Virus record (IMG/VR): IMGVR_UViG_3300025015_000001
Origin: a virus
Direction: 5' to 3' (one strand)
Length of the DNA: 64,000 bases
Part shown: positions 36,644 through 55,649 of the stretch, piece after piece
Numbering within the stretch: position 1 is the first letter of the stretch
How the letters are laid out: every line of letters begins with the position of its first letter
Notes under the pieces: model-generated
What the model was told of the DNA's origin: nothing
What the model saw: only the letters and a program-made list of their open reading frames with translations
Databases searched by the model: none
Position numbers and translations under genes: made by a program

Positions 36644-38872
36644 ATGGCAAAAAAAGTTGCAAATCAAGCAGCGATTAAAAATTTATCATCTTTTGTCTCT
36701 CCTCAGATGGTGCATGGTAATAAGCAAGCTGCCGCTGTATCTGAATTACAAAAAGAAATGAACAAGACGGCAGATACTGGCGGGGTATTTTTTAGTGTAC
36801 CAACCCCGTACCAGCCCGAATTCGGCGACCCATCTAAGATAAATTTCCCTATAGATCGTCACCAGGCCAATAGATATTGGAGATTATTTTATCGGACCGA
36901 CCCCATTGTGGGTTCTGTTATAGATATGTTTTCTGAAATGCTTACATCCGATATGGATTTATATGGAGAGGGAATTACAGGAGAGGTTAAGAGAGCGTAT
37001 GAGCAAGCTATAGATAATACGTCTATAGTATCGCTATTTCAATACTTTATAAAAGAATTCTTAGTAGTGGGGGAAGTGATTCCTCATTTAATATTTGATG
37101 AGTCTAAGGGAGTATGGAGCGATTTAATATTCCATAATCCGGATCAAGTAAATGTGTTGAGTTCCTCATTTCTCAACGTTCCAACTATCTTGGAGTTCTG
37201 CCCAGATGAAGGTTTACGTAAGTTCATAACATCACAGCACCCCCAAGTATTGGATTATATACAGACATTACCTGCAGAGATAGTTTCGGCAATTGCGTCT
37301 GGGCAAAATGTACCACTAAATACAAAATTTAATGTTTCATTTTTAGCAAGAAAATTATTTCCGTATGATGTTCGTGGTACAAGTATTATGCCGAGAATGT
37401 GGCAGATTTCGATGTACGAATCCTCAATCATGAACGCTAGTATCCAAACAGCAAAACGTCATTCCGGCCCTATTAAAATCGTAAAAATCGGCTCCCCAGA
37501 GCATCAATTTATTCCACCCAAAGAATTTTTTGATGAGATAGTTCAACAATTTACTATAGCAGAATCAGACCCACATGCTATGATTGTACTGCCTAATTAT
37601 GGTATACAGTTTGAGGCGTTTGGGACTACTGATAGGATGATGAGTATTAGTAGAGAGTATGATATTATAGAGCGCGTAAAAATGACTGCATTAGGCGTTT
37701 CAGCAGGCATGATGCACGGCGAGTCAACGTTCGCAGCGAGCAAGACCAATCTTAATACTCTGCTACTCAGACTTAAAGGTATGCGCAAGTTCTTTGAATC
37801 TATGTGGTTTCATAATAAATTCTTCAAACCATTGGCTGAGATAAATGAGTGGCACCACAGATCAACTTCGGAGATCTCCCATCGCGTCCGTATTAAGAAA
37901 AATGCCAACGAACAACGTCTCATAGTACCTAAGATTAAATGGAGACAATTATTAGAGCCTGTAGTAGATAAGGATATGTTAGAAGCAATTAGGCTCCTTA
38001 ATGATCTTGGTGTTAAGTCAAGCAAGACCACGTCATTTGCTGCAGCGGGGCTTGACTTTGAAGGAGAAACTGTTAATGCTCTTACCGAGCAGAAGATAGA
38101 AAAGCAACTTAGAAAGAAAATATTACCTGAAGATGTCAAGGATAAACGTCCAGAAGATATAGCCCAAGAAATTCTTCCCGGTGGTGGGATGCCATTGTCA
38201 ATGTCAGAAGAACTACCAATGACACCAGTAGAAGAGGGTAGTTTACCAGAAGCAGCACCTGTCGGATTACCTCCAGAAGGAGAAGCACCAACTCCAGAAG
38301 AAGCTGCCGAGGTGGCCCCCGGGGCTCCTCCAATTACACCGGCCCCAGCATCTAAGCAAGCTCCCTCTAAAAGAGGCTTTAAAGTTACTGCTAACGATGT
38401 AGATGATTTAATTGATTTAATGGAAACTGGTAATACTGAATCCCAAATTTGGTCTTATATTAAATCTAAGGGAGAAGGTAATAACGAGTTTATTAAGAAT
38501 TGTAATTGGGATAGAATAAGTGAATATATGGAAGATGAGAATTTTAGTGATGCTGAAATAGAATATGTAAGAAAAGCATTAGTAAGAAAACATATAATTG
38601 AAGCTTCATTAAATGATAAATTAGAAGATGCAGTAGAAACTTTAAATTTAGCTGCTGCCACTGATGCGGAGCTACATTCTAAAATTGATAAAACTATTAG
38701 TGATATATTTAAGGATAAGATAGCTAAGATACAAGAAAAAGTCAAAGAGCAAGATGATGCGTTCTTAACTGGTGAAGGTAATATATATTCTGATAATGAT
38801 TTTCTTGTAAGAAGTGGTGGGAATTTATCAGATAAAGCTATCAAGAAATATCGGAAGACTAAGAAGAAATAG
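36644..38872 (+). CDS. Portal protein
   Basis: Located between terminase and protease; FYRTDPIVGSVIDMFSE, RKLFPYDVRGTSI patterns; Pro/Glu linker and C-terminal extension. Confidence 0.8.
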   Translation: MAKKVANQAAIKNLSSFVSPQMVHGNKQAAAVSELQKEMNKTADTGGVFFSVPTPYQPEFGDPSKINFPIDRHQANRYWRLFYRTDPIVGSVIDMFSEMLTSDMDLYGEGITGEVKRAYEQAIDNTSIVSLFQYFIKEFLVVGEVIPHLIFDESKGVWSDLIFHNPDQVNVLSSSFLNVPTILEFCPDEGLRKFITSQHPQVLDYIQTLPAEIVSAIASGQNVPLNTKFNVSFLARKLFPYDVRGTSIMPRMWQISMYESSIMNASIQTAKRHSGPIKIVKIGSPEHQFIPPKEFFDEIVQQFTIAESDPHAMIVLPNYGIQFEAFGTTDRMMSISREYDIIERVKMTALGVSAGMMHGESTFAASKTNLNTLLLRLKGMRKFFESMWFHNKFFKPLAEINEWHHRSTSEISHRVRIKKNANEQRLIVPKIKWRQLLEPVVDKDMLEAIRLLNDLGVKSSKTTSFAAAGLDFEGETVNALTEQKIEKQLRKKILPEDVKDKRPEDIAQEILPGGGMPLSMSEELPMTPVEEGSLPEAAPVGLPPEGEAPTPEEAAEVAPGAPPITPAPASKQAPSKRGFKVTANDVDDLIDLMETGNTESQIWSYIKSKGEGNNEFIKNCNWDRISEYMEDENFSDAEIEYVRKALVRKHIIEASLNDKLEDAVETLNLAAATDAELHSKIDKTISDIFKDKIAKIQEKVKEQDDAFLTGEGNIYSDNDFLVRSGGNLSDKAIKKYRKTKKK

Positions 38873-40372: not shown

Positions 40373-43300
40373 TTGTCATTTTACAAAACATCAAAGGCTG
40401 ACATATTAGCATTTCGTAATACCTCCGAAGCTGGTTTTACGAGAAATGCATCTCAAATAAAGACATCATCCTTTTTCCAAAATAACGGAACTAAGGTAGA
40501 CGTCAAAGCTGCTATTGAGAATGTGGCTGATACCTATAAAATTTCCAAGAATCCTAACGATTATATATTTGTAATATCAAGAGCACTTACAGCAGATGTA
40601 CCTAACGAAAATAATGATGCATTTCCTGCAGACGAACTTTTAAGATTTGATCCTAAATATGGTTGCAGAGTATTCCAGACGTTTAATTTAAAACCAAATC
40701 ATATCAACCATAGAGCAGACGATCCAACACAAGCTCGTGGTGTTATATTAGATGCTCATTATAATGATATGGATAGCGACAATAAGTTTGTAGAAATTCT
40801 TGTTGCTGTAGATAAGACCAAAGATAGAAAGATTGCAGAAGGCATACTTAAGGGTGATATTAATAGTATGTCAATGGGTTGTTTTAGCGAAGAATGTCAT
40901 TGTAGCATATGTGGGCACATAGCATCTTCTTCTGATGAACTATGTCCAGATCACATTCGTGGTGGATTAAAAGGTAAATTATTTGAAGGCAAGAAAGCCT
41001 ATGAAAAATGTTATAAAGTTTGTTTTCAAGAAGAATCTTGGGTAGACGACCCAGCGGATCCTCAAGCATTAGTTAGCGAAGTATTAGGTATTAATGCTAA
41101 ATTAAAAGAAGCTGAAAAGAAGCATAAGATGGAAGATGAATCTTCTATTTTAATATTATCTAATAGACTATCTAAAATTGAGGAGTCACTTGGGGCTATG
41201 AATAAAAAAGCAAATGAAGAGAGGCTTATTCATGATGTCAACGGTCCAAATTGGCACGTGTTTACAAAAATAAGATTAGAGAATAATGGCGTTACTATTC
41301 TAAAAAATTATAGTGTTAATGCATCTGATAGAGCGCTTACTGAAGAGGAGTATAATGCTATACCTAATACCGAACTTCGCCCCTGGAACGAAACTGGCGA
41401 GCTTGACGCTAAAGGTAATAGACTGTCTACAGAATATTTTGTACCTACTAAAGGGTGGTTAAAAATAAATAATCCAGAATGGGTGTACGCGTCTGATACT
41501 CCTGATTTAAAAAAACAAGCCTTTAAAGTTGAAACTAAATTTAAGCAGAAGAAAGTAGAAGACTCTGCTATTACTAATATAGAACAGGAATCAGAAACTG
41601 AAGTTGAAACTAACTTAGATAAATTTATAGAAAAATCAAATACAGAGGAGCTAAAGCCTATGTCAGCCAATGAGTTTGGAGCAGTTAGTGCTACTAAAAA
41701 TCCCTATGTCAAGATTGCAGAAGGAAAAGTACCTTCGGCATGGAAGAGCCCAGGGAAATCAACTGGAAAAGTTCCATCATTATGGAGCAATCCTGGGAAG
41801 GGTAGCGGTAAGGTTCCCTCTCTTTGGAAGGCGGCTTTCATAGAAAAGCTTGCTCTTGATAGTAAAGCAGAAGAGTACTGGAAGAAGTATTGGGGTTCTT
41901 ATGGTGAGGAGCTTGTCAAGGACATTAAGAAGAAGAAGCTTGCAGGTAAGCTCACAGTAGAGCAGATGAAAGCTATTGAGCCTAAGTTTGCTGGGATAAT
42001 GGAGTCCGCTGGAATAGACACCATCGCAGTAGATAACGTACTAGAGCTTGGTGACGCGATCAACTCAGTACAGGCAGCTAAGGACCAAAAATCTAAGCTC
42101 TGGTCTGACATAGATAATAAGATAAAGACTAAGAAGGCTGATTTAGAGATAGCTCTTTGTGGAGATGAGTGGATTTTTAAGGAAGGATCTAAGAATATTT
42201 TTGCTATAGATAATTCTTTTAATATTACAAAAGAAGCTTTTGAGAGCGATGAATTTGGTCAAAGTATATGCAAGTCACTTTTAGAAGATGGTGCTGAAAA
42301 GACTGCGGCTGAATACAGAGTTTCTCTTTATGATGCGACATCTAATGAGCCTGCTTCTATTTTAGAAGGGGCAGAAGATGATATTAGGGGAGAAGAGAAG
42401 AAGAAACCCACTAATGGTGTTGAAGAAGGCGGGTCAGATGATGTAGCTGATGTATACCGAGGCGATATCAAAGAAGAGGGTGGTGTAACAGAGGGTGCTA
42501 CTAATGATCTAAAAGCTACCAAAACTGCGGACATTAAGAGATTTAATGAAGTTATGCAGATAGCTGAGGATCTTATAGAAAAAGATAAACTTTCAGCACC
42601 AAAACAGGATAAGTTGGTTGATGTAATTAAAGAACTATATTTGCATCCCACAGAAGAGAAGAAAGAAAAAGAAGAAGATAAAATTGAAACCGAAATAGAA
42701 GCTCCTATTACTGATATAATGGAACCAAAAGAATCTAAGAAGGCCTCCACAGAAGATGTTAGAATGATAATTAAAGCTCTGACAGACCAGGCGATAGCAG
42801 AAGGCAAGTCAACCAGCTCACCAGAGATGCTGGACGCTATATCAGCGATTAAAATTGCATTTGATTTGGCGGAAACCCACCCAATATCAGAAACTCTTAG
42901 TAGCGGAGAAACCGTCACCTCAAATATTTACGCTAAAATGGTAGCAGAAAAGGTAGCTAATATTCTTGACAGTCCCATCACAGATTTAGCTGACAAGAAA
43001 GATGAGGCTAAAGATGGTGTGGTAGAGAATGGAATTGATGATATCAAAGGTGTAGATAGAGAATCAAACGCCGACCATATTTATGGTGGCGGACAAGACG
43101 ACATAGCAGAAGACAAGGGTGAAGTTATTAAGGTTGGTTCCAAAGAGTACGAAGAAGTAATCTCTAAGACAGCAACAGAAATAGCAGAAACCAGAATTGC
43201 TCAGGAGATGGATTTATTTAAGAAATCTTATGAAGCAAGACTAAAGAGGGCGCTCAATATATCAATAAGAAGGGCTAATCTTAATCTTATTGATAATGAG

Positions 43301-43672
43301 CTTAAGGCAGCAATGTACGATGTACTTACTTCTGAGTTTGAACTTCCTACTGGTGAAGTAGTTCCTGCATTAGAAGGTGTGGACGCAAACTGTCTTATCG
43401 AAGCAGCATTTAATAAAGGTGCTAAGAAGTTCTTCTCAAATATTTTAGCAGAGTCAGATAGAGCAATGAATCTTTCTGAGGATGCTCTTATTGAGGTAGA
43501 GAATGATTTGAATGGGCTTAATGTTGCACCAGTAACAGCTTCTTATGCTAAGAAAGAGGTTGTTGTTAATACCAAAGCCAAAGAAGCAGTAGAGGGTAAT
43601 CCTATATTTAAGTCTTCTTCGGAAGTAGCTAAGAGCAAGTTTCCAAGCATAAAAGGAATATTTAGGAGTTAA
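40373..43672 (+). CDS. Prohead protease-scaffold fusion
   Basis: N-domain PNENNDAF...HINH...ARGVILDA...SMSMGC...CSICG...FQEESWVDDPAD; long acidic scaffold-like C-region; upstream of capsid genes. Confidence 0.8.
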   Translation: MSFYKTSKADILAFRNTSEAGFTRNASQIKTSSFFQNNGTKVDVKAAIENVADTYKISKNPNDYIFVISRALTADVPNENNDAFPADELLRFDPKYGCRVFQTFNLKPNHINHRADDPTQARGVILDAHYNDMDSDNKFVEILVAVDKTKDRKIAEGILKGDINSMSMGCFSEECHCSICGHIASSSDELCPDHIRGGLKGKLFEGKKAYEKCYKVCFQEESWVDDPADPQALVSEVLGINAKLKEAEKKHKMEDESSILILSNRLSKIEESLGAMNKKANEERLIHDVNGPNWHVFTKIRLENNGVTILKNYSVNASDRALTEEEYNAIPNTELRPWNETGELDAKGNRLSTEYFVPTKGWLKINNPEWVYASDTPDLKKQAFKVETKFKQKKVEDSAITNIEQESETEVETNLDKFIEKSNTEELKPMSANEFGAVSATKNPYVKIAEGKVPSAWKSPGKSTGKVPSLWSNPGKGSGKVPSLWKAAFIEKLALDSKAEEYWKKYWGSYGEELVKDIKKKKLAGKLTVEQMKAIEPKFAGIMESAGIDTIAVDNVLELGDAINSVQAAKDQKSKLWSDIDNKIKTKKADLEIALCGDEWIFKEGSKNIFAIDNSFNITKEAFESDEFGQSICKSLLEDGAEKTAAEYRVSLYDATSNEPASILEGAEDDIRGEEKKKPTNGVEEGGSDDVADVYRGDIKEEGGVTEGATNDLKATKTADIKRFNEVMQIAEDLIEKDKLSAPKQDKLVDVIKELYLHPTEEKKEKEEDKIETEIEAPITDIMEPKESKKASTEDVRMIIKALTDQAIAEGKSTSSPEMLDAISAIKIAFDLAETHPISETLSSGETVTSNIYAKMVAEKVANILDSPITDLADKKDEAKDGVVENGIDDIKGVDRESNADHIYGGGQDDIAEDKGEVIKVGSKEYEEVISKTATEIAETRIAQEMDLFKKSYEARLKRALNISIRRANLNLIDNELKAAMYDVLTSEFELPTGEVVPALEGVDANCLIEAAFNKGAKKFFSNILAESDRAMNLSEDALIEVENDLNGLNVAPVTASYAKKEVVVNTKAKEAVEGNPIFKSSSEVAKSKFPSIKGIFRS
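41723..41830 (+). repeat. Three 14-aa GKVPS(A/L)W repeats
   Basis: GKVPSAWKSPGKST GKVPSLWSNPGKGS GKVPSLWK. Confidence 0.9.
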
Positions 43673-45417: not shown

Positions 45418-46524
45418 ATGGTTAATCCATACAGAAAGACAGCAAAACATGTAGCCGCGGATGGTTCTGCTTACAATCCAGCCGCTTTTGGTGGGATAAA
45501 AGGAGACGGGTCTATTGCTAGGGGTGCTGGTAAGGCATTCGATGGTAATGGTCAGGTAAATGCCTATGATAAAAAAGATGCTCTCACACAGACCATCAAT
45601 GCTTATCAGTCAGCAGTAGCTGATGCTTCTAAGGGCGGTATTAGGAAAGAAAGCGCACTCGATAAGCAGGCTAAGAGAGAAGCTATTCAAGCTGCCCTTA
45701 ATGATACCGAGGGATTTAAGATGATCGGCTCTGAACTCTTGGCTCCAGTCAAGGAAATCATAGACTACGAGTCATGGTCAAGGAAGCTGCTCAGAGTAAG
45801 GCCTCTTGCTCAGGGCGAACAGTTCAGGATCACCAAGGACGTTGCTAAGCAGGTTACAGCGTGGATGGTTGGTCAGGACGGCCAGACCCCAGTTAGTCAG
45901 GTTACTGGTAAGTATATAATGCCTGCCGAATTTAAGATCACAAGCTTCGTTGATATCGATATCACTGATATCTATCAGATGCAGTATGATGGTCTTGATA
46001 GGGCGCAGGATTTTGCTCGCCAGGATATAGAGCGTCAGGAAGACAAGGCACTTGTAGCTGCTCTAGAAGCTGCCGCCGCAACCAGCAATGATGTTACTTA
46101 TTTCGCATCATTGGGCCTCACTGCTTTCGCTGATATTATGTATCAGGTAGAAAAGAACAGGCTTATGGTTGACAAGTTCCTTATCAGCAGGGCAGAGCTG
46201 GTTGATATACAGACCACAATGTCAGCTGGTGTTGACCCTGTTACCGAAAGGGAGTTAATTCTTTCTGGTTACATCGGTAATATATACAATGCACAGATAA
46301 TCACTTCTGCTGGTACCAATACATTTGAAGTAGTTCCTGCAGGAGTTGTATATGCCGTGACTGCCCCTGAATATTTGGGTGACTTCGGAATAAGGATTGA
46401 TCTCTTTTCCGAACCATTTAACAACTATGTTATTGGTCAGACAAGAAAAGGCTGGGCATTTATTGAGCAGATTGGTATTGGGCTCCCAAATTCCTTCGCT
46501 ATAGCTAAGGGTTCTAAGCAGTAG
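45418..46524 (+). CDS. Major capsid protein
   Basis: 368 aa after protease/scaffold and decoration genes; LLAPVKEIIDYESWSRKLL, E-loop-like QGEQFRITKD; biased codon usage; followed by a terminator. Confidence 0.85.
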   Translation: MVNPYRKTAKHVAADGSAYNPAAFGGIKGDGSIARGAGKAFDGNGQVNAYDKKDALTQTINAYQSAVADASKGGIRKESALDKQAKREAIQAALNDTEGFKMIGSELLAPVKEIIDYESWSRKLLRVRPLAQGEQFRITKDVAKQVTAWMVGQDGQTPVSQVTGKYIMPAEFKITSFVDIDITDIYQMQYDGLDRAQDFARQDIERQEDKALVAALEAAAATSNDVTYFASLGLTAFADIMYQVEKNRLMVDKFLISRAELVDIQTTMSAGVDPVTERELILSGYIGNIYNAQIITSAGTNTFEVVPAGVVYAVTAPEYLGDFGIRIDLFSEPFNNYVIGQTRKGWAFIEQIGIGLPNSFAIAKGSKQ

Positions 46525-46554
46525 TAATTACTCAATATTTTAATACTAATTATC

Positions 46555-46593
46555 AGGGAAGTATGGTGTAAAAGCCTACTTCCCTATTTTTTT
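46555..46593 (+). terminator. Rho-independent terminator after MCP
   Basis: AGGGAAGTA...TACTTCCCT stem followed by a T-tract. Confidence 0.85.
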
Positions 46594-46655
46594 ACTTGTT
46601 TTTATTAAGCATTTGTGCTATACTTTACTTATAAAATTTAAGTAAAGGAGAATGT

Positions 46656-47570
46656 ATGAAAATAAGTATCGAAAATATTGGTAAGGAGCAAGACAAATAC
46701 TTAAGAAGTCTACCCAAAGGATAAGAAATCTGGTGCACAGAAAATAATTTAGGTAGTATTCTGGCGATATTATTCCCTAAAACAGAAATCATCCACGATA
46801 AAAACCTAAAATTATCTGGGTTTACTATTAGGCCGGATTATTATTTACCGAAGCAAAAGCTAGCTATTGAGTACCAAGGACCGCGTCATTTTACTGAGGC
46901 AAAGACAATTAATAGAGATGAACTTAAGAGAATTATCTATAAAGATAATAATATTACTTGTATAGAACTTCCGTACTTTATCCAACCGACAAAAGAAGTA
47001 TTAACCTATTTATTTAAAGATAATAAATATATTGATGATTTTAGTAATGGATTTCCTCATGGATTTATCCACCCAGATGCTATATTATTAGGTGATTTTA
47101 ATCGGTGTGGGCTCATTACTGTCGAGCAAATACTCAATTCCTTTCCTACAGAAGTTAGGCACGACTGTTTTGCCTCATTGAGTAAGCAGGCGCAATCCGA
47201 TGGTGTTATAGATGTTATGTACAATCCATTCTTTATAAAGAATAGTCCTCATATAAAAAATGATTTTATTGATATGGGCAATGTTATATTAAATTTAATA
47301 GCCGAAGAAGACGATATTGTTGGTACATCCTATTGGGAAAAGGATAATAATTTTATCCTACTTATAGAAAATAAAATATCTTGCGTAATAGATAGTATTG
47401 ATAACTGTATGGTGGCGTCTGTTAGTCTATATAATTTATTATCACCATTAGAGGTTGCTAATATTATAGAAAAATTATACAGCATAAAAAACTTGTGTAC
47501 TGTGGTTATGGACGTTTTTACTGAAGAAGATCAAAAATTATGGGGAACAGACGCCACATCAAGTATATAG
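46656..47570 (+). pseudogene. PD-(D/E)xK/Vsr-like nuclease gene with one in-frame TAA (46722-46724)
   Basis: AAGGAG RBS; frame otherwise open for about 300 codons; RPDYYLPKQKLAIEYQGPRHF motif. Confidence 0.75.
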
Positions 47571-48651: not shown

Positions 48652-49155
48652 ATGAGTAAGTTATTTTTTGATATATTTGACATACCTTATATTAGATTGG
48701 TAGCAAGTAAAACTAAATTAGCCGTCCATCCAGACTACATAGATAGAATCAATAAGTTACCCACCGATAGCCAATATAATAAGTTACTTGAATTTACAGA
48801 AAGCTTACTATTAGTCGAAGAGTCAGCATTTCCAAATTTAGAAGAAGAAGTAAAGAGACGACTGAGAGAGCAAGAGCATGATTCAGGTGGAACGTATAGT
48901 TCGAAAATTTATGAAATGATACCCAAAGCTATTAGGGAGCTTAAAAAGAGACATCCAGAAAAAGTAGAAGTAGTTAAATCAGAAGAAGAAAAAAAACTAG
49001 AGCAAGAGCAGATAAAAGAATTTTATGAGAACGTTAAGTCTAAAGAAGGGATCCCCGATTTGTCTTGGCCAGAACAATTTAAGAAAATGATAACAGAAAA
49101 AGAATCTTGCAAATTACCAAGTAAGTATAGACAAATTTTAAATAATAGGAGGTGA
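48652..49155 (+). CDS. Hypothetical, putative head-associated protein
   Basis: 167 aa; RLVAS/KTKLA junction-like motifs. Confidence 0.6.
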   Translation: MSKLFFDIFDIPYIRLVASKTKLAVHPDYIDRINKLPTDSQYNKLLEFTESLLLVEESAFPNLEEEVKRRLREQEHDSGGTYSSKIYEMIPKAIRELKKRHPEKVEVVKSEEEKKLEQEQIKEFYENVKSKEGIPDLSWPEQFKKMITEKESCKLPSKYRQILNNRR

Positions 49156-49286
49156 TGCAGATAGTACAGAAGTAATTTCACCATTATGTAACCATGCATA
49201 ATGAGGCACAGAAGTATTGGCTAGATGTACCTAGTGACATAGTGTCACAAGAGCTTGTCATATAAGTATGACATCTCCTAACTTAT
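49141..49286 (+). ncRNA. Putative closed multi-stem RNA upstream of a PLMP/RRXRR-like domain
   Basis: Closing stem TAGGAG/CTCCTA, perfect hairpins 49182-49203, 49234-49248, 49256-49273, and direct repeat ACAGAAGTA. Confidence 0.6.
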
Positions 49287-49300
49287 TAACAAAAGAATAA

Positions 49301-50194
49301 GTGAATACAATTATAGTAATAAATGATGATAATCAGATTATCTCCAAAACTACATCCGCGATGGCTAGGAAATTATTAGCCAAGAAAGATGCTGTTGTAG
49401 TTTCTAGGAATCCGTTCATTATTCAATTATTAAAATATGCTTCGTTTATTCCAATCAAGGAGACTTTTAAAATGGAACCAAGAAATTTAATGACTTTAAT
49501 TAAGAACGAAGAACCTATCTACCTCTTGAATCTCAAAGCCGATGGGCAAATAACAATGCACTTTAGGACGCTCTACGGAGAGCCTAAGCCATTCAGAGTA
49601 CCAAAAGGCTCCCTCCCTGTCAATATAAGTGATGAGTACACATACGAGGAGCTTAAGAATTTTACTGATCTTAGGAGAGTAATTTCTAAGGGATGGGTTC
49701 GTGTCATGAATCAGGAAGATAGGGATGCATTCCTATTGAGGAGAAGCTCCTCATCAAAGAAGTCTTTAGATAAGATAAAAGAAGAAACGGACAAAGCACA
49801 AAGAATGACTACAGCAGAACTTAAGGCTGAAAGAGTTACCGGAGAAGAACTAGAAGAAATGCGGCGTACCAAGGAAGCTATGGAAAAGGTAGAAATGGAT
49901 TCAATTGTCAGACCAAGAATTATAGGCCTATGTCAGAGATTAAGTAAAGACTCAGACAATCCTATCGATCCAATGGAAGCCCTAGAGGAATTGGAACTAC
50001 TCGCCCCAACAGAAGATGAGTCTAACTATATTTTAACCCATTCTGGTGGTAATGCTATAATTAAGAAATGGGTGTTAGCAAAACAGATTGACGGACTTGA
50101 GGAATCAGAAATAGAGGCAGCAATCGTAGTCTCAGAAATTTCAGATAAAAAAGTCCGACCGAAAATAAAAACTAAGAAATCTACCAAAAAATAA
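49301..50194 (+). CDS. N-terminal RRXRR/PLMP-like domain in frame with a hypothetical protein (internal start 49472)
   Basis: IIVINDDNQIISKTTSAMARKLLAKKDAVVVSRNPFIIQL; AAGGAG before ATG 49472. Confidence 0.65.
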   Translation: MNTIIVINDDNQIISKTTSAMARKLLAKKDAVVVSRNPFIIQLLKYASFIPIKETFKMEPRNLMTLIKNEEPIYLLNLKADGQITMHFRTLYGEPKPFRVPKGSLPVNISDEYTYEELKNFTDLRRVISKGWVRVMNQEDRDAFLLRRSSSSKKSLDKIKEETDKAQRMTTAELKAERVTGEELEEMRRTKEAMEKVEMDSIVRPRIIGLCQRLSKDSDNPIDPMEALEELELLAPTEDESNYILTHSGGNAIIKKWVLAKQIDGLEESEIEAAIVVSEISDKKVRPKIKTKKSTKK

Positions 50195-54909: not shown

Positions 54910-55294
54910 AAAAGTTGCTGTCCTAGAGGTACTTGTAGAGGGTATCAGAAAAGATATTGATAGGGTGGAAAAAAATTTTGATAGTATAAGTAGTGACTTG
55001 TCTTTATATAAAGAAGATTTACGGAGTGTAATACTACAATTTAAAGGCGTAATGAGCCAAATATCAGATTACTCCGTTCAGATTAAAGAAATTGAGGCTA
55101 AGTTAAGACTATCAGATGATAGGTTGGATGATTGTGAACAGGATAGAAAAAGTTCAGATCTAATACGATTTGTCAAAGACAATCCAGCTAAGTCCTTGCA
55201 AATAACATTGATAGTACTAGTGTTTATTTTCTCATATATATTTGTTAGTGCACCACTTAAAGCTATACTGTTAAAATTATTAGGGATGGGGTAA
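54887..55294 (+). CDS. Coiled-coil protein with C-terminal TM (holin-like)
   Basis: Long heptad repeat then ITLIVLVFIFSYIFVSA; upstream of the endolysin. Confidence 0.55.
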   Translation: MSEAELIKKVAVLEVLVEGIRKDIDRVEKNFDSISSDLSLYKEDLRSVILQFKGVMSQISDYSVQIKEIEAKLRLSDDRLDDCEQDRKSSDLIRFVKDNPAKSLQITLIVLVFIFSYIFVSAPLKAILLKLLGMG

Positions 55295-55295
55295 T

Positions 55296-55649
55296 ATGTG
55301 TTCTACGTGGATTCTGGAATCAAATGATTTTTATTCAAGCTATAATAAAAAATTACTGGATGATTATCCTGATGTACAATCAGAAGAGTTGAATCCAATA
55401 GAAGCGTTAAAAAAAATAGAACTGGGAGCTTTTCCGGACGTTGTAGTATTAGACACAATTCTTCCATTTATAGATGGAAAGAAGTTAATGTCTATTATAA
55501 AAAAAGCTAATCCGAAAGTAGAATTTATAATTATGGCGGATATGGAAGAGCATAGAACAGATATGCGTAATACACATATCTTACCTAAACCATTTTTTGT
55601 ATCTGAATTTAGAAAAATATTTACTGCTGTTAAGAAAAAAATTAAATAA
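55296..55649 (+). CDS. Stand-alone response-regulator receiver (CheY-like) domain
   Basis: EALKKI...PDVVVLDTILPFIDG...IIMAD...LPKPF. Confidence 0.85.
   Translation: MCSTWILESNDFYSSYNKKLLDDYPDVQSEELNPIEALKKIELGAFPDVVVLDTILPFIDGKKLMSIIKKANPKVEFIIMADMEEHRTDMRNTHILPKPFFVSEFRKIFTAVKKKIK

What the first reader, a model, noticed from the sequence alone, without database searches (positions are those of the whole stretch)
49141..49471. Closed multi-hairpin RNA + mini-ORF + PLMP/RRXRR domain: possible domesticated OMEGA (IscB/IsrB-type) relic
Seen: AGGAGG-ATG-MQIVQK* coupled to the upstream stop; this SD can pair with CTCCTA (49275-80), closing a ~140-nt structure with three perfect hairpins and two ACAGAAGTA repeats. 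It is followed by a 57-aa segment resembling the IscB N-terminal PLMP/RRXRR domain (V..D....PL.P...ARKLL....A.V....PF.IQL), fused in frame to a gene that has its own SD and ATG (49472). Known: IscB/IsrB carry PLMP and an upstream omega/HEARO RNA. Inference: either a nuclease-less mobile remnant or an RNA-protein switch controlling the downstream gene.
Basis: partly seen in the sequence, partly recalled or inferred. Interest (0 to 1): 0.7.

Follow-up and report, generated by a model that had tools for sequence, protein, structure and literature searches.

The report
Nuclease-free IscB PLMP gene, structured leader
A 194-kb groundwater phage has a gene near its capsid gene that starts with the small RNA-hairpin-binding "PLMP" domain of IscB (the Cas9 ancestor) but carries no nuclease, and a new conserved multi-hairpin RNA precedes it that probably controls how much of the PLMP-tagged protein is made.

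Summary

**RNA.** Positions 49146-49280 fold into a closed multi-hairpin RNA. Three hairpins keep pairing through compensatory changes in four or five phage lineages: 95-97% of cells are paired, against 71-76% in shuffles. No Rfam family matches, and the genome holds one copy.

**Protein.** Residues 1-47 of ORF 49301-50194 are a true PLMP domain:
- Pfam RRXRR: 28 bits, above the cut-off of 25.
- Family profile against TbaIscB: E 5.7e-15.
- AF2 model on IscB/IsrB N-termini: Z 7-8.

There is no RuvC, HNH or HEARO RNA.

**Not a relic.** More than 40 distant homologues (24-48% identity) carry the same PLMP-X fusion, mostly right after the capsid gene. The PLMP codons are under purifying selection (pN/pS 0.13-0.27). 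All 13 loci checked keep an in-frame SD+ATG at the PLMP/X junction, so two products are expected, PLMP-X and X.

**Leader and start codon.** Lineages with the RNA have no SD at the long-form start, and four of five use GTG. Lineages without it have an SD.

**Best reading (inferred, about 0.45).** The leader governs initiation of the PLMP-tagged isoform, probably through PLMP binding its own hairpins.

This scan has noted nuclease-free PLMP genes beside capsid genes in at least 9 other genomes. I found no paper describing them.

The parts
48652..49155 (+). Upstream 167-aa ORF of unknown function. Its last codons and TGA stop overlap the 5' motif of the leader. It is not part of the unit.
   Evidence: no Pfam or PHROG hit. 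In L004 a different gene sits here, and in L011/L023 a TnpB element is inserted here, yet the RNA stays attached to the PLMP gene.
49146..49152 (+). 5' strand of closing helix P0 (UAGGAGG). It lies within the conserved SD-like motif RGGUGAU (49147-49156 = AGGAGGUGAU).
   Evidence: MFE and RNAalifold. 87.5% of cells are paired; the core is invariant and only the 2 outer pairs covary. The motif is kept in all 8 loci.
49155..49175 (+). Mini-ORF MQIVQK*. Probably not a gene.
   Evidence: Not conserved in presence, length or sequence. SD-ATG spacing is 2 nt.
49182..49203 (+). Hairpin H1: 9 bp here, 7 bp conserved. The loop holds a conserved CCAU and the hairpin is followed by a conserved GAGG.
   Evidence: One search shows stems of different sequence in every lineage; 100% paired, 4 of 7 pairs with changes on both sides.
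49205..49222 (+). Short, weak helix H2 (3 bp) enclosing the conserved UAUUGGC stretch.
   Evidence: RNAalifold and (1 pair covaries). One search finds other possible short stems here, so this helix is poorly defined.
49231..49251 (+). Hairpin H3: 6 bp (49234-39 with 49243-48) plus an outer CU/AG extension. It runs into a conserved AAGAG.
   Evidence: 3 pairs change on both sides. L004 keeps pairing through two G-U pairs, which fits only the + strand.
49256..49273 (+). Hairpin H4: 7 bp with loop UAAG.
   Evidence: 100% paired, 6 of 7 pairs with compensatory changes.
49274..49280 (+). 3' strand of P0 (UCUCCUA), an anti-SD-like CUCC.
49281..49302 (+). A/U-rich hairpin H5 (7 bp) that includes the first two bases of the GTG start. 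Specific to this lineage.
   Evidence: present in the window, L003 and L004 only; not found in L010, L011/L022, L012 or L023.
49301..50194 (+). Long isoform PLMP-X, 297 aa. GTG start without an SD, directly after an in-frame TAA.
   Evidence: GTG-AAT is conserved in window, L003, L004, L010, L011 and L022; L013/L023 also start at GTG and L012 at ATG. Residues 2-20 are conserved in homologues at 33-49% identity, so this region is translated.
49301..49441 (+). PLMP domain, residues 1-47 (strand-strand-helix-strand-strand).
   Evidence: Pfam PF14239 positions 1-44, 28 bits against a cut-off of 25. 39 of 50 family members hit it. Family profile against TbaIscB E 5.7e-15 and OgeuIscB 8e-10. AF2 pLDDT 89-96. 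VIA Z 7.0-8.0, rmsd 2.5-3.4 A over 51-52 residues on IscB/IsrB N-termini. pN/pS 0.13-0.27.
49457..49474 (+). Internal ribosome-binding site (AAGGAGA, 8-nt spacer) and ATG 49472 (Met58), inside the disordered PLMP-X linker.
   Evidence: an SD-like motif plus ATG at the junction in all 13 long-form loci, including members at or below 30% identity. Lys57-Met58-Glu59 is invariant in the 6-member subclade. The linker has pLDDT below 50.
49472..50194 (+). Short isoform X, 240 aa: PHROG 17686, function unknown. A strand-rich N-domain, long helices and a Lys-rich tail.
   Evidence: phrog_17686 E 3.4e-11. Homologues of 200-246 aa without PLMP exist, also in PaBG, Motura, BcepSaruman and phiRSL1. No informative match in the PDB.

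Best explanation
SHOWN. The unit is a structured 5' leader RNA of about 135-160 nt, followed by one gene with two in-frame starts.
- The leader has a closing helix of GGAGG with CUCC, three covarying hairpins and conserved single-stranded GAGG, UAUUGGC and AAGAG.
- GTG 49301 has no SD and gives PLMP-X (297 aa). ATG 49472 has a strong SD and gives X alone (240 aa).
- The PLMP domain is homologous to the N-terminal domain of IscB/IsrB. The rest of the protein is a phage protein of unknown function that, in distant relatives, is encoded right after the major capsid gene.

INFERRED.
- X is made constitutively from the internal site.
- The PLMP-tagged form is made at a low, controlled level, because its start depends on the leader.
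- The leader holds an SD-like element locked in P0 and offers hairpin-plus-purine junctions. In IsrB the PLMP domain grips this kind of site: tandem terminal hairpins, one of which carries the SD.
- The most likely mechanism is therefore autogenous. PLMP-X binds its own leader and sets the PLMP-X : X ratio.
- This is a working phage gene that reuses the PLMP-hairpin module. It is neither an OMEGA nuclease nor a decayed element.
For: RNA is real and acts on the + strand.
- Hairpin stems differ in sequence but stay complementary in the window group, L010, L011/L022, L012 and L023.
- On A11, 97.1% of cells are paired against 71.1% in shuffles, 13 of 20 pairs change on both sides, and the covariation score is 0.767 against 0.245 (0/500). 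Slid controls reach at most 0.15.
- With the RNAalifold structure the figures are 95.3% against 76.1% and 0.585 against 0.207.
- Five stem substitutions among close relatives all give G-U pairs on the + strand.
- The leader DNA is 90-98% identical where the synonymous sites of the gene itself are near saturation (pS 0.55-0.65).

PLMP homology.

Old fusion: 105 homologues, many of 270-315 aa aligning from residue 2-6 (alignment A3).

PLMP is translated and selected: 12 synonymous against 7 non-synonymous changes, window versus L003.

Dual start: SD plus ATG at the junction in 13 of 13 loci, although the linker residues differ.

Link between leader and start codon.
- All 5 RNA-bearing lineages lack an SD at the long-form start, and 4 of 5 use GTG.
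- The RNA-less lineages L019, L020 and L021 have a clear SD. L014/15 and L016 have weaker AAGG-type ones, read by eye.

RNA and gene travel together. The upstream neighbour is replaced in L004 and interrupted by TnpB in L011/L023, yet the RNA stays 21-50 nt before the start.

Precedent. In DtIsrB the PLMP domain binds the tandem hairpins SL7/SL8 at the 3' end of the omegaRNA. SL7 holds the SD of isrB, and PLMP 'contacts the Shine-Dalgarno sequence' (PMC9581776).
Against: - No binding, expression or isoform data exist. No RNA run holds this phage (see Tried and rejected).
- PLMP is family-wide, but this RNA is found only in the subclade at or above about 32% identity. Distant members have a terminator hairpin and an ordinary SD instead, so PLMP does not need this RNA.
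- The P0 core is invariant, so it cannot be tested by covariation. It is weakened in L011 and L012.
- No similarity to omegaRNA is detectable.
- The covariation rests on 7-8 sequences in 4-5 lineages, and the alignments were fitted to a model.
- The function of X is unknown, so the purpose of tagging a fraction of it is unknown too.
Confidence: 0.45

Rival explanations
1. The leader is a cis-regulatory RNA that works without PLMP. Possible forms are a ribosome standby or discontinuous ribosome-binding site, a riboswitch-like junction that senses a ligand or another phage or host factor, or an RNase-processing or stabilising element. In the discontinuous-site version, the 5' AGGAGGUGAU is brought next to the SD-less GUG by the folded domain. 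Under this rival, the PLMP domain has a different target.
For: - The RNA occurs in only part of the PLMP-X family.
- The 5' motif AGGAGGUGAU reads as an extended SD, complementary to the 3' end of 16S rRNA (my knowledge of that sequence). It is kept even where P0 is weak.
- The RNA correlates with the lack of an SD at the start codon.
- The conserved unpaired GAGG, UAUUGGC and AAGAG suggest tertiary structure or a bound factor.
Against: - A separation of about 145 nt between SD and start has no bacterial precedent that I know of.
- P0 would hide that SD.
- No known riboswitch or leader family matches.
- The strict adjacency to a gene whose first domain is a hairpin/SD-binding fold in IsrB would then be coincidence.
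Confidence: 0.3
2. The RNA is a stable non-coding RNA in its own right. It forms a ribonucleoprotein with PLMP-X, for example in head assembly or packaging or inside the virion, so that a few PLMP-tagged copies of X anchor an RNA to a structure built of X.
For: - The gene lies in the head module, and directly after the capsid gene in distant members.
- Two isoforms would give mixed oligomers in which only a few subunits carry the tag.
- X has long helices and a Lys-rich tail.
- In L012 a sigma-70-like promoter (TTGACA, 17 nt, TACAAT) lies just 5' of the RNA.
- The conservation of loops and junctions is stronger than a simple operator would need.
Against: - No terminator or processing signal lies between the RNA and the ORF.
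- There is no evidence that the RNA accumulates.
- RNA-less family members would lack the partner.
- There is no evidence that X is a virion protein.
Confidence: 0.1
3. The conservation is at the DNA level (a recombination, packaging or homing site), or the segment is the inert remnant of an IscB, IshB or HNH homing element that happened to fuse in frame.
For: - TnpB elements have inserted at exactly the 5' edge of the block in two lineages, so the DNA is a recurrent target.
- Synonymous divergence in the PLMP codons (0.14-0.33) is about half that in X. This could reflect recent exchange of the block.
- Some family members also hit HNH-endonuclease PHROGs through the PLMP part.
Against: - All stem changes are G-U-compatible only on the + strand, and compensatory pairs are kept.
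- PLMP pN/pS is 0.13-0.27.
- The fusion is kept down to 24% identity, with an internal SD+ATG in 13 of 13 loci.
- The genome holds a single copy, with no nuclease remnant and no IS ends.
Confidence: 0.05

Closest known systems
PLMP domain of the OMEGA effectors IscB/IsrB, with the 3'-terminal hairpins of their omegaRNA (PDB 9K30, 9K2Z, 7XHT/7UTN, 8DMB; N-terminal 44 positions of Pfam PF14239 RRXRR)
   Same: - Homologous domain by sequence and by fold.
- It is N-terminal.
- A structured RNA with tandem hairpins and SD-like purine tracts lies directly 5' of the codons for the domain. In IsrB, PLMP holds SL7/SL8 and touches the SD.
   Different: - No RuvC, bridge helix, HNH or TI domain.
- No guide segment, no HEARO match, no IS200/IS605 ends or TnpA, and a single copy.
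- The domain is fused to a phage protein of unknown function.
- The literal P-L-M-P motif reads I-I-S-K here.
Autogenous translational operators of phages and ribosomal-protein operons (for example T4 gp32, gp43 and RegA, or r-protein leaders; from my knowledge)
   Same: An RNA-binding protein is encoded directly behind a structured leader that involves SD-like sequence. The expected outcome is self-limitation.
   Different: - Binding is untested.
- Here only the long isoform would be controlled, while a second in-frame start escapes control.
- The leader is a multi-helix junction, far larger than typical phage operators.
Nested in-frame genes with an internal start in phage morphogenesis (for example lambda C/Nu3, phiX174 A/A*; from my knowledge)
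   Same: One reading frame has two initiation sites and gives a full-length protein and an N-terminally shortened one.
   Different: The extra N-terminal part is an RNA-binding PLMP domain rather than a protease or enzymatic domain. The upstream start lacks an SD and mostly uses GTG.
Split ribosome-binding sites bridged by a hairpin (T4 genes 38 and 25; from my knowledge)
   Same: An SD-like element lies far from the start codon, with folded RNA in between.
   Different: The separation here is about 145 nt against 22-27 nt, and the SD-like element is itself paired in P0. This is only a rival idea.
Earlier findings of this scan: nuclease-free PLMP genes next to the capsid gene in other large uncultured phages
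   Same: The same family architecture, upstream hairpins, and an internal start noted in one of them.
   Different: - Here the leader is a larger closed junction with three covarying hairpins.
- It is single-copy: no look-alike hairpins stand before other genes.
- The long-form start has no SD at all.

Membership tests
PLMP domain (N-terminal part of Pfam PF14239 RRXRR) | Profile match above the curated cut-off | tested here: met
   28 bits against a cut-off of 25, residues 4-47 on profile positions 1-44. 39 of 50 family members match, best E 2.1e-11. The family profile hits IscB N-termini at E 5.7e-15 to 3e-5.
PLMP domain (N-terminal part of Pfam PF14239 RRXRR) | Four-stranded antiparallel sheet plus one helix, superposable on the IscB/IsrB N-terminus (IF3-N-like) | tested here: met
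   The AF2 model has strand-strand-helix-strand-strand with pLDDT 89-96. VIA Z 8.0 (9K30), 7.6, 7.3 and 7.0 (8DMB), rmsd 2.5-3.4 A over 51-52 residues. Foldseek also lists IF3-N.
PLMP domain (N-terminal part of Pfam PF14239 RRXRR) | The literal P-L-M-P motif in strand 2 | tested here: inconclusive
   The window reads IISK. Distant members read YLLPT and VLMPT. The motif is degenerate in this subclade, and the profile and fold still match.
IscB / IsrB / IshB OMEGA effectors | Split RuvC nuclease (IscB, IsrB) and/or HNH nuclease (IscB, IshB) | tested here: not met
   Only profile positions 1-44 of 174 match. No other Pfam domain matches at E<=1. Residues 58-297 show no nuclease-like fold match.
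IscB / IsrB / IshB OMEGA effectors | omegaRNA (HEARO, RF02033) upstream, with a guide segment at the element's end | tested here: not met
   No HEARO match at E<=10, either in 6 kb or in 201 nt.
IscB / IsrB / IshB OMEGA effectors | IS200/IS605-type mobile context (ends, TnpA, several copies) | tested here: not met
   A single copy of the RNA and of PLMP in the 194-kb genome. The position is syntenic across a phage family.
PLMP-bound terminal hairpins of omegaRNA (IsrB SL7/SL8) | Tandem hairpins directly 5' of the PLMP codons, one of them carrying the gene's SD | tested here: inconclusive
   The tandem covarying hairpins H3 and H4 end 28 nt before the start. The start has no SD. SD-like GGAGG, GAGG and AAGAG sit at helix junctions instead. 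No sequence or model similarity could be shown.
PLMP-bound terminal hairpins of omegaRNA (IsrB SL7/SL8) | Physical binding of the RNA by the PLMP domain | not testable with these tools
   The complex predictor takes proteins and small ligands only, and no RNA runs are available.
Genes with two in-frame initiation sites | A conserved internal SD plus start codon in frame, independent of the encoded residues | tested here: met
   13 of 13 long-form loci have a GGAG-type motif 5-9 nt before an ATG at the PLMP/X junction, while the linker peptides differ. Free-standing short forms also exist.
Known RNA families (Rfam 15) | A covariance-model match at or near the gathering score | tested here: not met
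   Only a sub-threshold H/ACA snoRNA match on the opposite strand (27.6 bits against 48) and a 15-bit sRNA match.

The most novel reading that the evidence does not exclude
PLMP plus hairpin is a portable RNA-recognition module with a life outside OMEGA nucleases. In these phages the roughly 135-nt junction RNA and the PLMP-tagged minority of protein X form a ribonucleoprotein that acts in head assembly or in late translation. This free-standing pair could be the kind of ancestor from which IscB/IsrB took both PLMP and the 3'-terminal omegaRNA hairpins, or a capture in the opposite direction.
Probability: 0.12. Interest if true: 0.85.

Novelty: new variant of a known kind. Interest (0 to 1): 0.66.

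Why it matters
- In the papers I could search, the PLMP domain is described only as part of the IscB/IsrB/IshB nucleases, where it grips the end of the guide RNA. Here it is used without any nuclease, in a conserved phage gene family. That bears on where the RNA-binding parts of the Cas9 lineage came from.
- It gives a small, natural protein-RNA pair (57 aa with about 135 nt) that can be tested directly.
- The leader is a new structured RNA with real covariation and no Rfam family.
- The arrangement of an SD-less GTG start behind a folded leader, with a strong internal start, is a tidy and testable case of isoform-ratio control in a phage.
- The repeated TnpB insertion at the edge of this RNA is a natural example of an RNA-guided transposon homing into a conserved phage sequence.

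Tried and rejected
- **Rfam.** On 6 kb and on 201 nt there was nothing real, and no HEARO match.
- **Other copies.** BLAST of the unit against its own genome and CM R2 over the whole genome each found only the one copy. A hairpin scan before 49 gene starts in the window found no look-alikes. A weak CM hit at 55287-55424 (E 0.42) was judged to be chance.
- **Second RRXRR hit in the genome.** The weak hit (E 0.011) is an ordinary RuvC-like resolvase next to an SbcC-like ATPase, not a PLMP or IscB piece.
- **Collections that gave nothing or little.**
  - IMG/VR: nothing with the protein, two RNA patterns, or P0011 and P0015. Only P0019 gave two loci.
  - GenBank phages: no DNA match and no match for the window's own protein. 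Queries P0015 and P0019 matched only Virus Rctr197k, which is unannotated.
  - GTDB genomes: nothing.
  - Alignments A3 and A6 were too divergent for the locus finder.
- **Sequencing runs.** No RNA holder was listed. All holders are groundwater or soil DNA metagenomes. Laying four runs gave only identical contigs and no new variants.
I therefore could not check whether short-form genes are preceded by a separate PLMP mini-gene, although the ESM Atlas lists stand-alone 58-64-aa RRXRR proteins, some from phages.
- **Function of X.** No informative hit in Pfam, PHROGs, Foldseek PDB or VIA-wide, on the whole protein or on the N-domain alone (best Z 3.8), and the Atlas gave nothing.
- **Terminator and promoter scan.** No terminator, and promoter-like sites at the level of the shuffles.
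- **Ideas rejected.**
  - The mini-ORF as a leader peptide: not conserved.
  - The ACAGAAGTA repeats: not conserved.
  - Hairpin H5 over the start codon: only in this lineage.
  - A uORF starting inside H4 (ATG 49268, ending TAA-GTG): not conserved.
  - Translational bypass from the upstream gene: the upstream gene is not constant.
- **Model R1.** It was built on a MAFFT alignment with register errors and gave only 76% pairing. It was replaced by R2 and R3.
- **Complex prediction was not used**, because it cannot take RNA.
Full report
**Setting.** The window is the minus strand of a 194,269-bp virus record with direct terminal repeats. It is about 32% G+C and comes from groundwater metagenomes. 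The finding lies in the head module, which holds the portal (36644-38872), a protease fusion (40373-43672) and the major head protein (45418-46524). Most genes in the window have GGAG-type Shine-Dalgarno (SD) sites 6-9 nt before the start codon.

**The observation.**
- AGGAGG lies at 49147-52. The TGA of the upstream 167-aa ORF overlaps an ATG that opens MQIVQK* (49155-75).
- Perfect hairpins lie at 49182-203, 49234-248 and 49256-273.
- There are two ACAGAAGTA copies.
- An ORF runs from GTG 49301 to 50194, with an internal AAGGAGA (49457-63) followed after 8 nt by ATG 49472.

Folded alone, 49130-49310 gives -42.3 kcal/mol with z = -3.24. Positions 49146-54 pair with 49271-79 and close a multi-branch loop.

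**The protein.**
- Residues 4-47 match Pfam RRXRR positions 1-44 of 174, at 28 bits against a cut-off of 25. This is the PLMP part only.
- An AF2 model built on a 50-sequence alignment gives strand-strand-helix-strand-strand for residues 1-45 (pLDDT 89-96). A disordered linker follows (residues 46-58), then a confident second part.
- Foldseek's top hits are IscB, IsrB and IF3-N.
- VIA-align places residues 2-52 on residues 1-52 of four IscB structures and on 6-59 of DtIsrB. Z is 7.0-8.0 and rmsd 2.5-3.4 A, with 24-31% identity.
- A profile of the domain from ten loci finds TbaIscB at E 5.7e-15 and OgeuIscB at 8e-10.
- Residues 68-268 match PHROG 17686, a 225-position family of unknown function.
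- That part has no informative solved relative, whether searched whole or as an isolated N-domain (best Z 3.8).
- Its viral look-alikes are uncharacterised 200-246-aa proteins of PaBG, Motura, BcepSaruman and phiRSL1.

**Not a relic.**
- An exhaustive HMMER search found 105 homologues. Many are 270-315 aa long and 24-48% identical, and they align from residue 2-6, so they include PLMP. A second group of 200-250 aa starts at about residue 62 (alignment A3).
- 39 of the 50 aligned members hit RRXRR.
- Among three close relatives, the PLMP codons have pN/pS of 0.13-0.27.
- In distant members the gene follows the capsid gene directly.
- The genome has no second PLMP, no IscB and no second copy of the RNA.

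**Two products.** In all 13 long-form loci examined, a GGAG-type motif sits 5-9 nt before an in-frame ATG at the PLMP/X junction. This includes members at or below 30% identity, and the linker peptides differ between them. Lys57-Met58-Glu59 is invariant in the six-member subclade. The gene should therefore give both PLMP-X and X.

**The RNA.**
- Relatives were recovered from Logan, ENA and JGI contigs.
- The block 49178-49540 is 90-98% identical among close relatives. The body of the gene is 75-88% identical, and the upstream gene is 50-80% identical or unrelated.
- The five stem substitutions among the close relatives all give G-U pairs on the + strand.
- In lineages whose proteins are 32-49% identical (L010, L011/L022, L012, L013/L023) the same layout recurs with different stem sequences.
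- A covariance model seeded from four sequences aligned seven sequences from four lineages. 97.1% of cells are paired against 71.1% in shuffles, and 13 of 20 pairs change on both sides. The covariation score is 0.767 against 0.245 (0/500), and slid controls reach at most 0.15.
- RNAalifold on a full-length alignment independently returned the closing helix P0 (49146-52 with 49274-80), H1, a weak H2, H3 with a CU/AG extension, and H4. Of 31 pairs, 16 are compensatory.
- Counting pairs on that structure gives 95.3% against 76.1% and 0.585 against 0.207.
- P0 is 87.5% paired. Its GGAGG/CUCC core does not vary, so covariation supports only its two outer pairs.
- Conserved unpaired sequence includes CCAU in the H1 loop, GAGG, UAUUGGC, ACCU and AAGAG.
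- Rfam has no match.
- These alignments were fitted to a model, and the number of lineages is small. The alignment-free hairpin list is the independent check.

**What is not conserved.** The mini-ORF, the ACAGAAGTA repeat and the A/U hairpin over the start codon (H5) are not conserved.

**Link between the RNA and the start codon.**
- The RNA always ends 21-50 nt before the long-form start. This holds where the upstream gene is replaced (L004) and where a TnpB element is inserted (L011, L023).
- All five RNA-bearing lineages lack an SD at that start, and four use GTG.
- The RNA-less lineages have an SD. It is clear in L019, L020 and L021 and weaker in L014/15 and L016.
- In those RNA-less members the capsid gene is followed by a terminator-like hairpin. 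In L014/15, L019 and L021 a second hairpin ending in AG(G/A) precedes the SD. I read this by eye and have not tested it.

**Mechanism.** In DtIsrB the PLMP domain binds the tandem hairpins SL7/SL8 at the 3' end of the omegaRNA. SL7 holds the SD of isrB, and PLMP contacts it. The fold resembles IF3-N (PMC9581776). On this basis I commit to the following reading.
- X is made from the internal site.
- The leader limits or gates initiation at the SD-less GUG.
- The PLMP end of the product binds the leader's hairpin-plus-purine junctions, which gives self-limitation of the tagged isoform.

The anatomy, the homology, the selection and the covariation are shown. Binding, regulation and the existence of both proteins are inferred. 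The rivals are a PLMP-independent leader (0.3), a stable RNA partner in a ribonucleoprotein (0.1), and a DNA-level or relic explanation (0.05).

**Comparison with what is known.** The domain is a member of the PLMP family. The gene is not a member of IscB, IsrB or IshB, because it has no nuclease, no HEARO RNA and no IS context. Searches for 'PLMP domain', 'RRXRR' and PLMP with phage or IshB returned only papers on OMEGA and Cas9. This scan had already noted nuclease-free PLMP genes beside capsid genes in at least 9 other genomes, some with hairpin copies before other late genes. In this genome I found only one copy.

Noticed in passing
L011:1516-2715 and L023:1-690, compared with the empty site L022:1843-1860; window equivalent about 49146: An IS605-type TnpB gene (Pfam OrfB_IS605, Cas12f1-like_TNB) with its 3' RNA scaffold ends exactly 5' of the conserved AGGTGA at the edge of the leader. 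This occurs in two phage lineages whose PLMP-X proteins have diverged well below 50% identity. L022 is the uninterrupted site. It looks like RNA-guided homing into a conserved phage sequence. The window itself has no TnpB here.
   Followed up: partly
L003:1151-3307 and L004:1957-3714, compared with window 46525-47177: Close relatives carry a 585-718-aa DUF7487 gene right after the capsid gene. The window has only a gap of about 650 nt with no ORF of 90 aa or more, followed by different small ORFs. The stretch between the capsid gene and the leader is a variable cargo region.
   Followed up: no
L012:530-610: A tRNA-like sequence ending in CCA lies upstream of the sigma-70-like promoter (TTGACA, 17 nt, TACAAT) that directly precedes the leader RNA in this relative. 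It was seen by eye and was not run through ARAGORN.
   Followed up: no
L014:2380-2500, L019:40-111, L021:990-1101: In distant PLMP-X genes that lack the big leader, a single hairpin whose 3' end runs into AG(G/A) lies 20-40 nt before the SD. This is reminiscent of H1-GAGG and H3-AAGAG in the window and could be a minimal PLMP site. It is not tested statistically.
   Followed up: no
L002:189-2040 (own genome, outside the window): A 442-aa SbcC-like ATPase is followed by a 176-aa RuvC-like resolvase. The resolvase gave the weak second RRXRR hit (E 0.011, profile positions 43-89). It is unrelated to the PLMP gene.
   Followed up: yes
window 49126-49146, and the same stretch in L003 and L004: The conserved block begins with AAATTTTAAATAAT just 5' of AGGAGG, even in L004 where the upstream gene is different. 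L010 and L022 also have TAWAWT-like hexamers at this place. This may be a -10-like promoter element that puts the 5' end of the RNA at P0. In DNA that is 68% A+T it may also be chance.
   Followed up: no
window 49301-49471 compared with 49472-50086: Synonymous divergence in the PLMP codons (0.14-0.33) is about half of that in the rest of the gene (0.55-0.65). The cause is either extra constraint at the RNA level reaching into the ORF, or more recent exchange of the leader-PLMP block between phages.
   Followed up: partly
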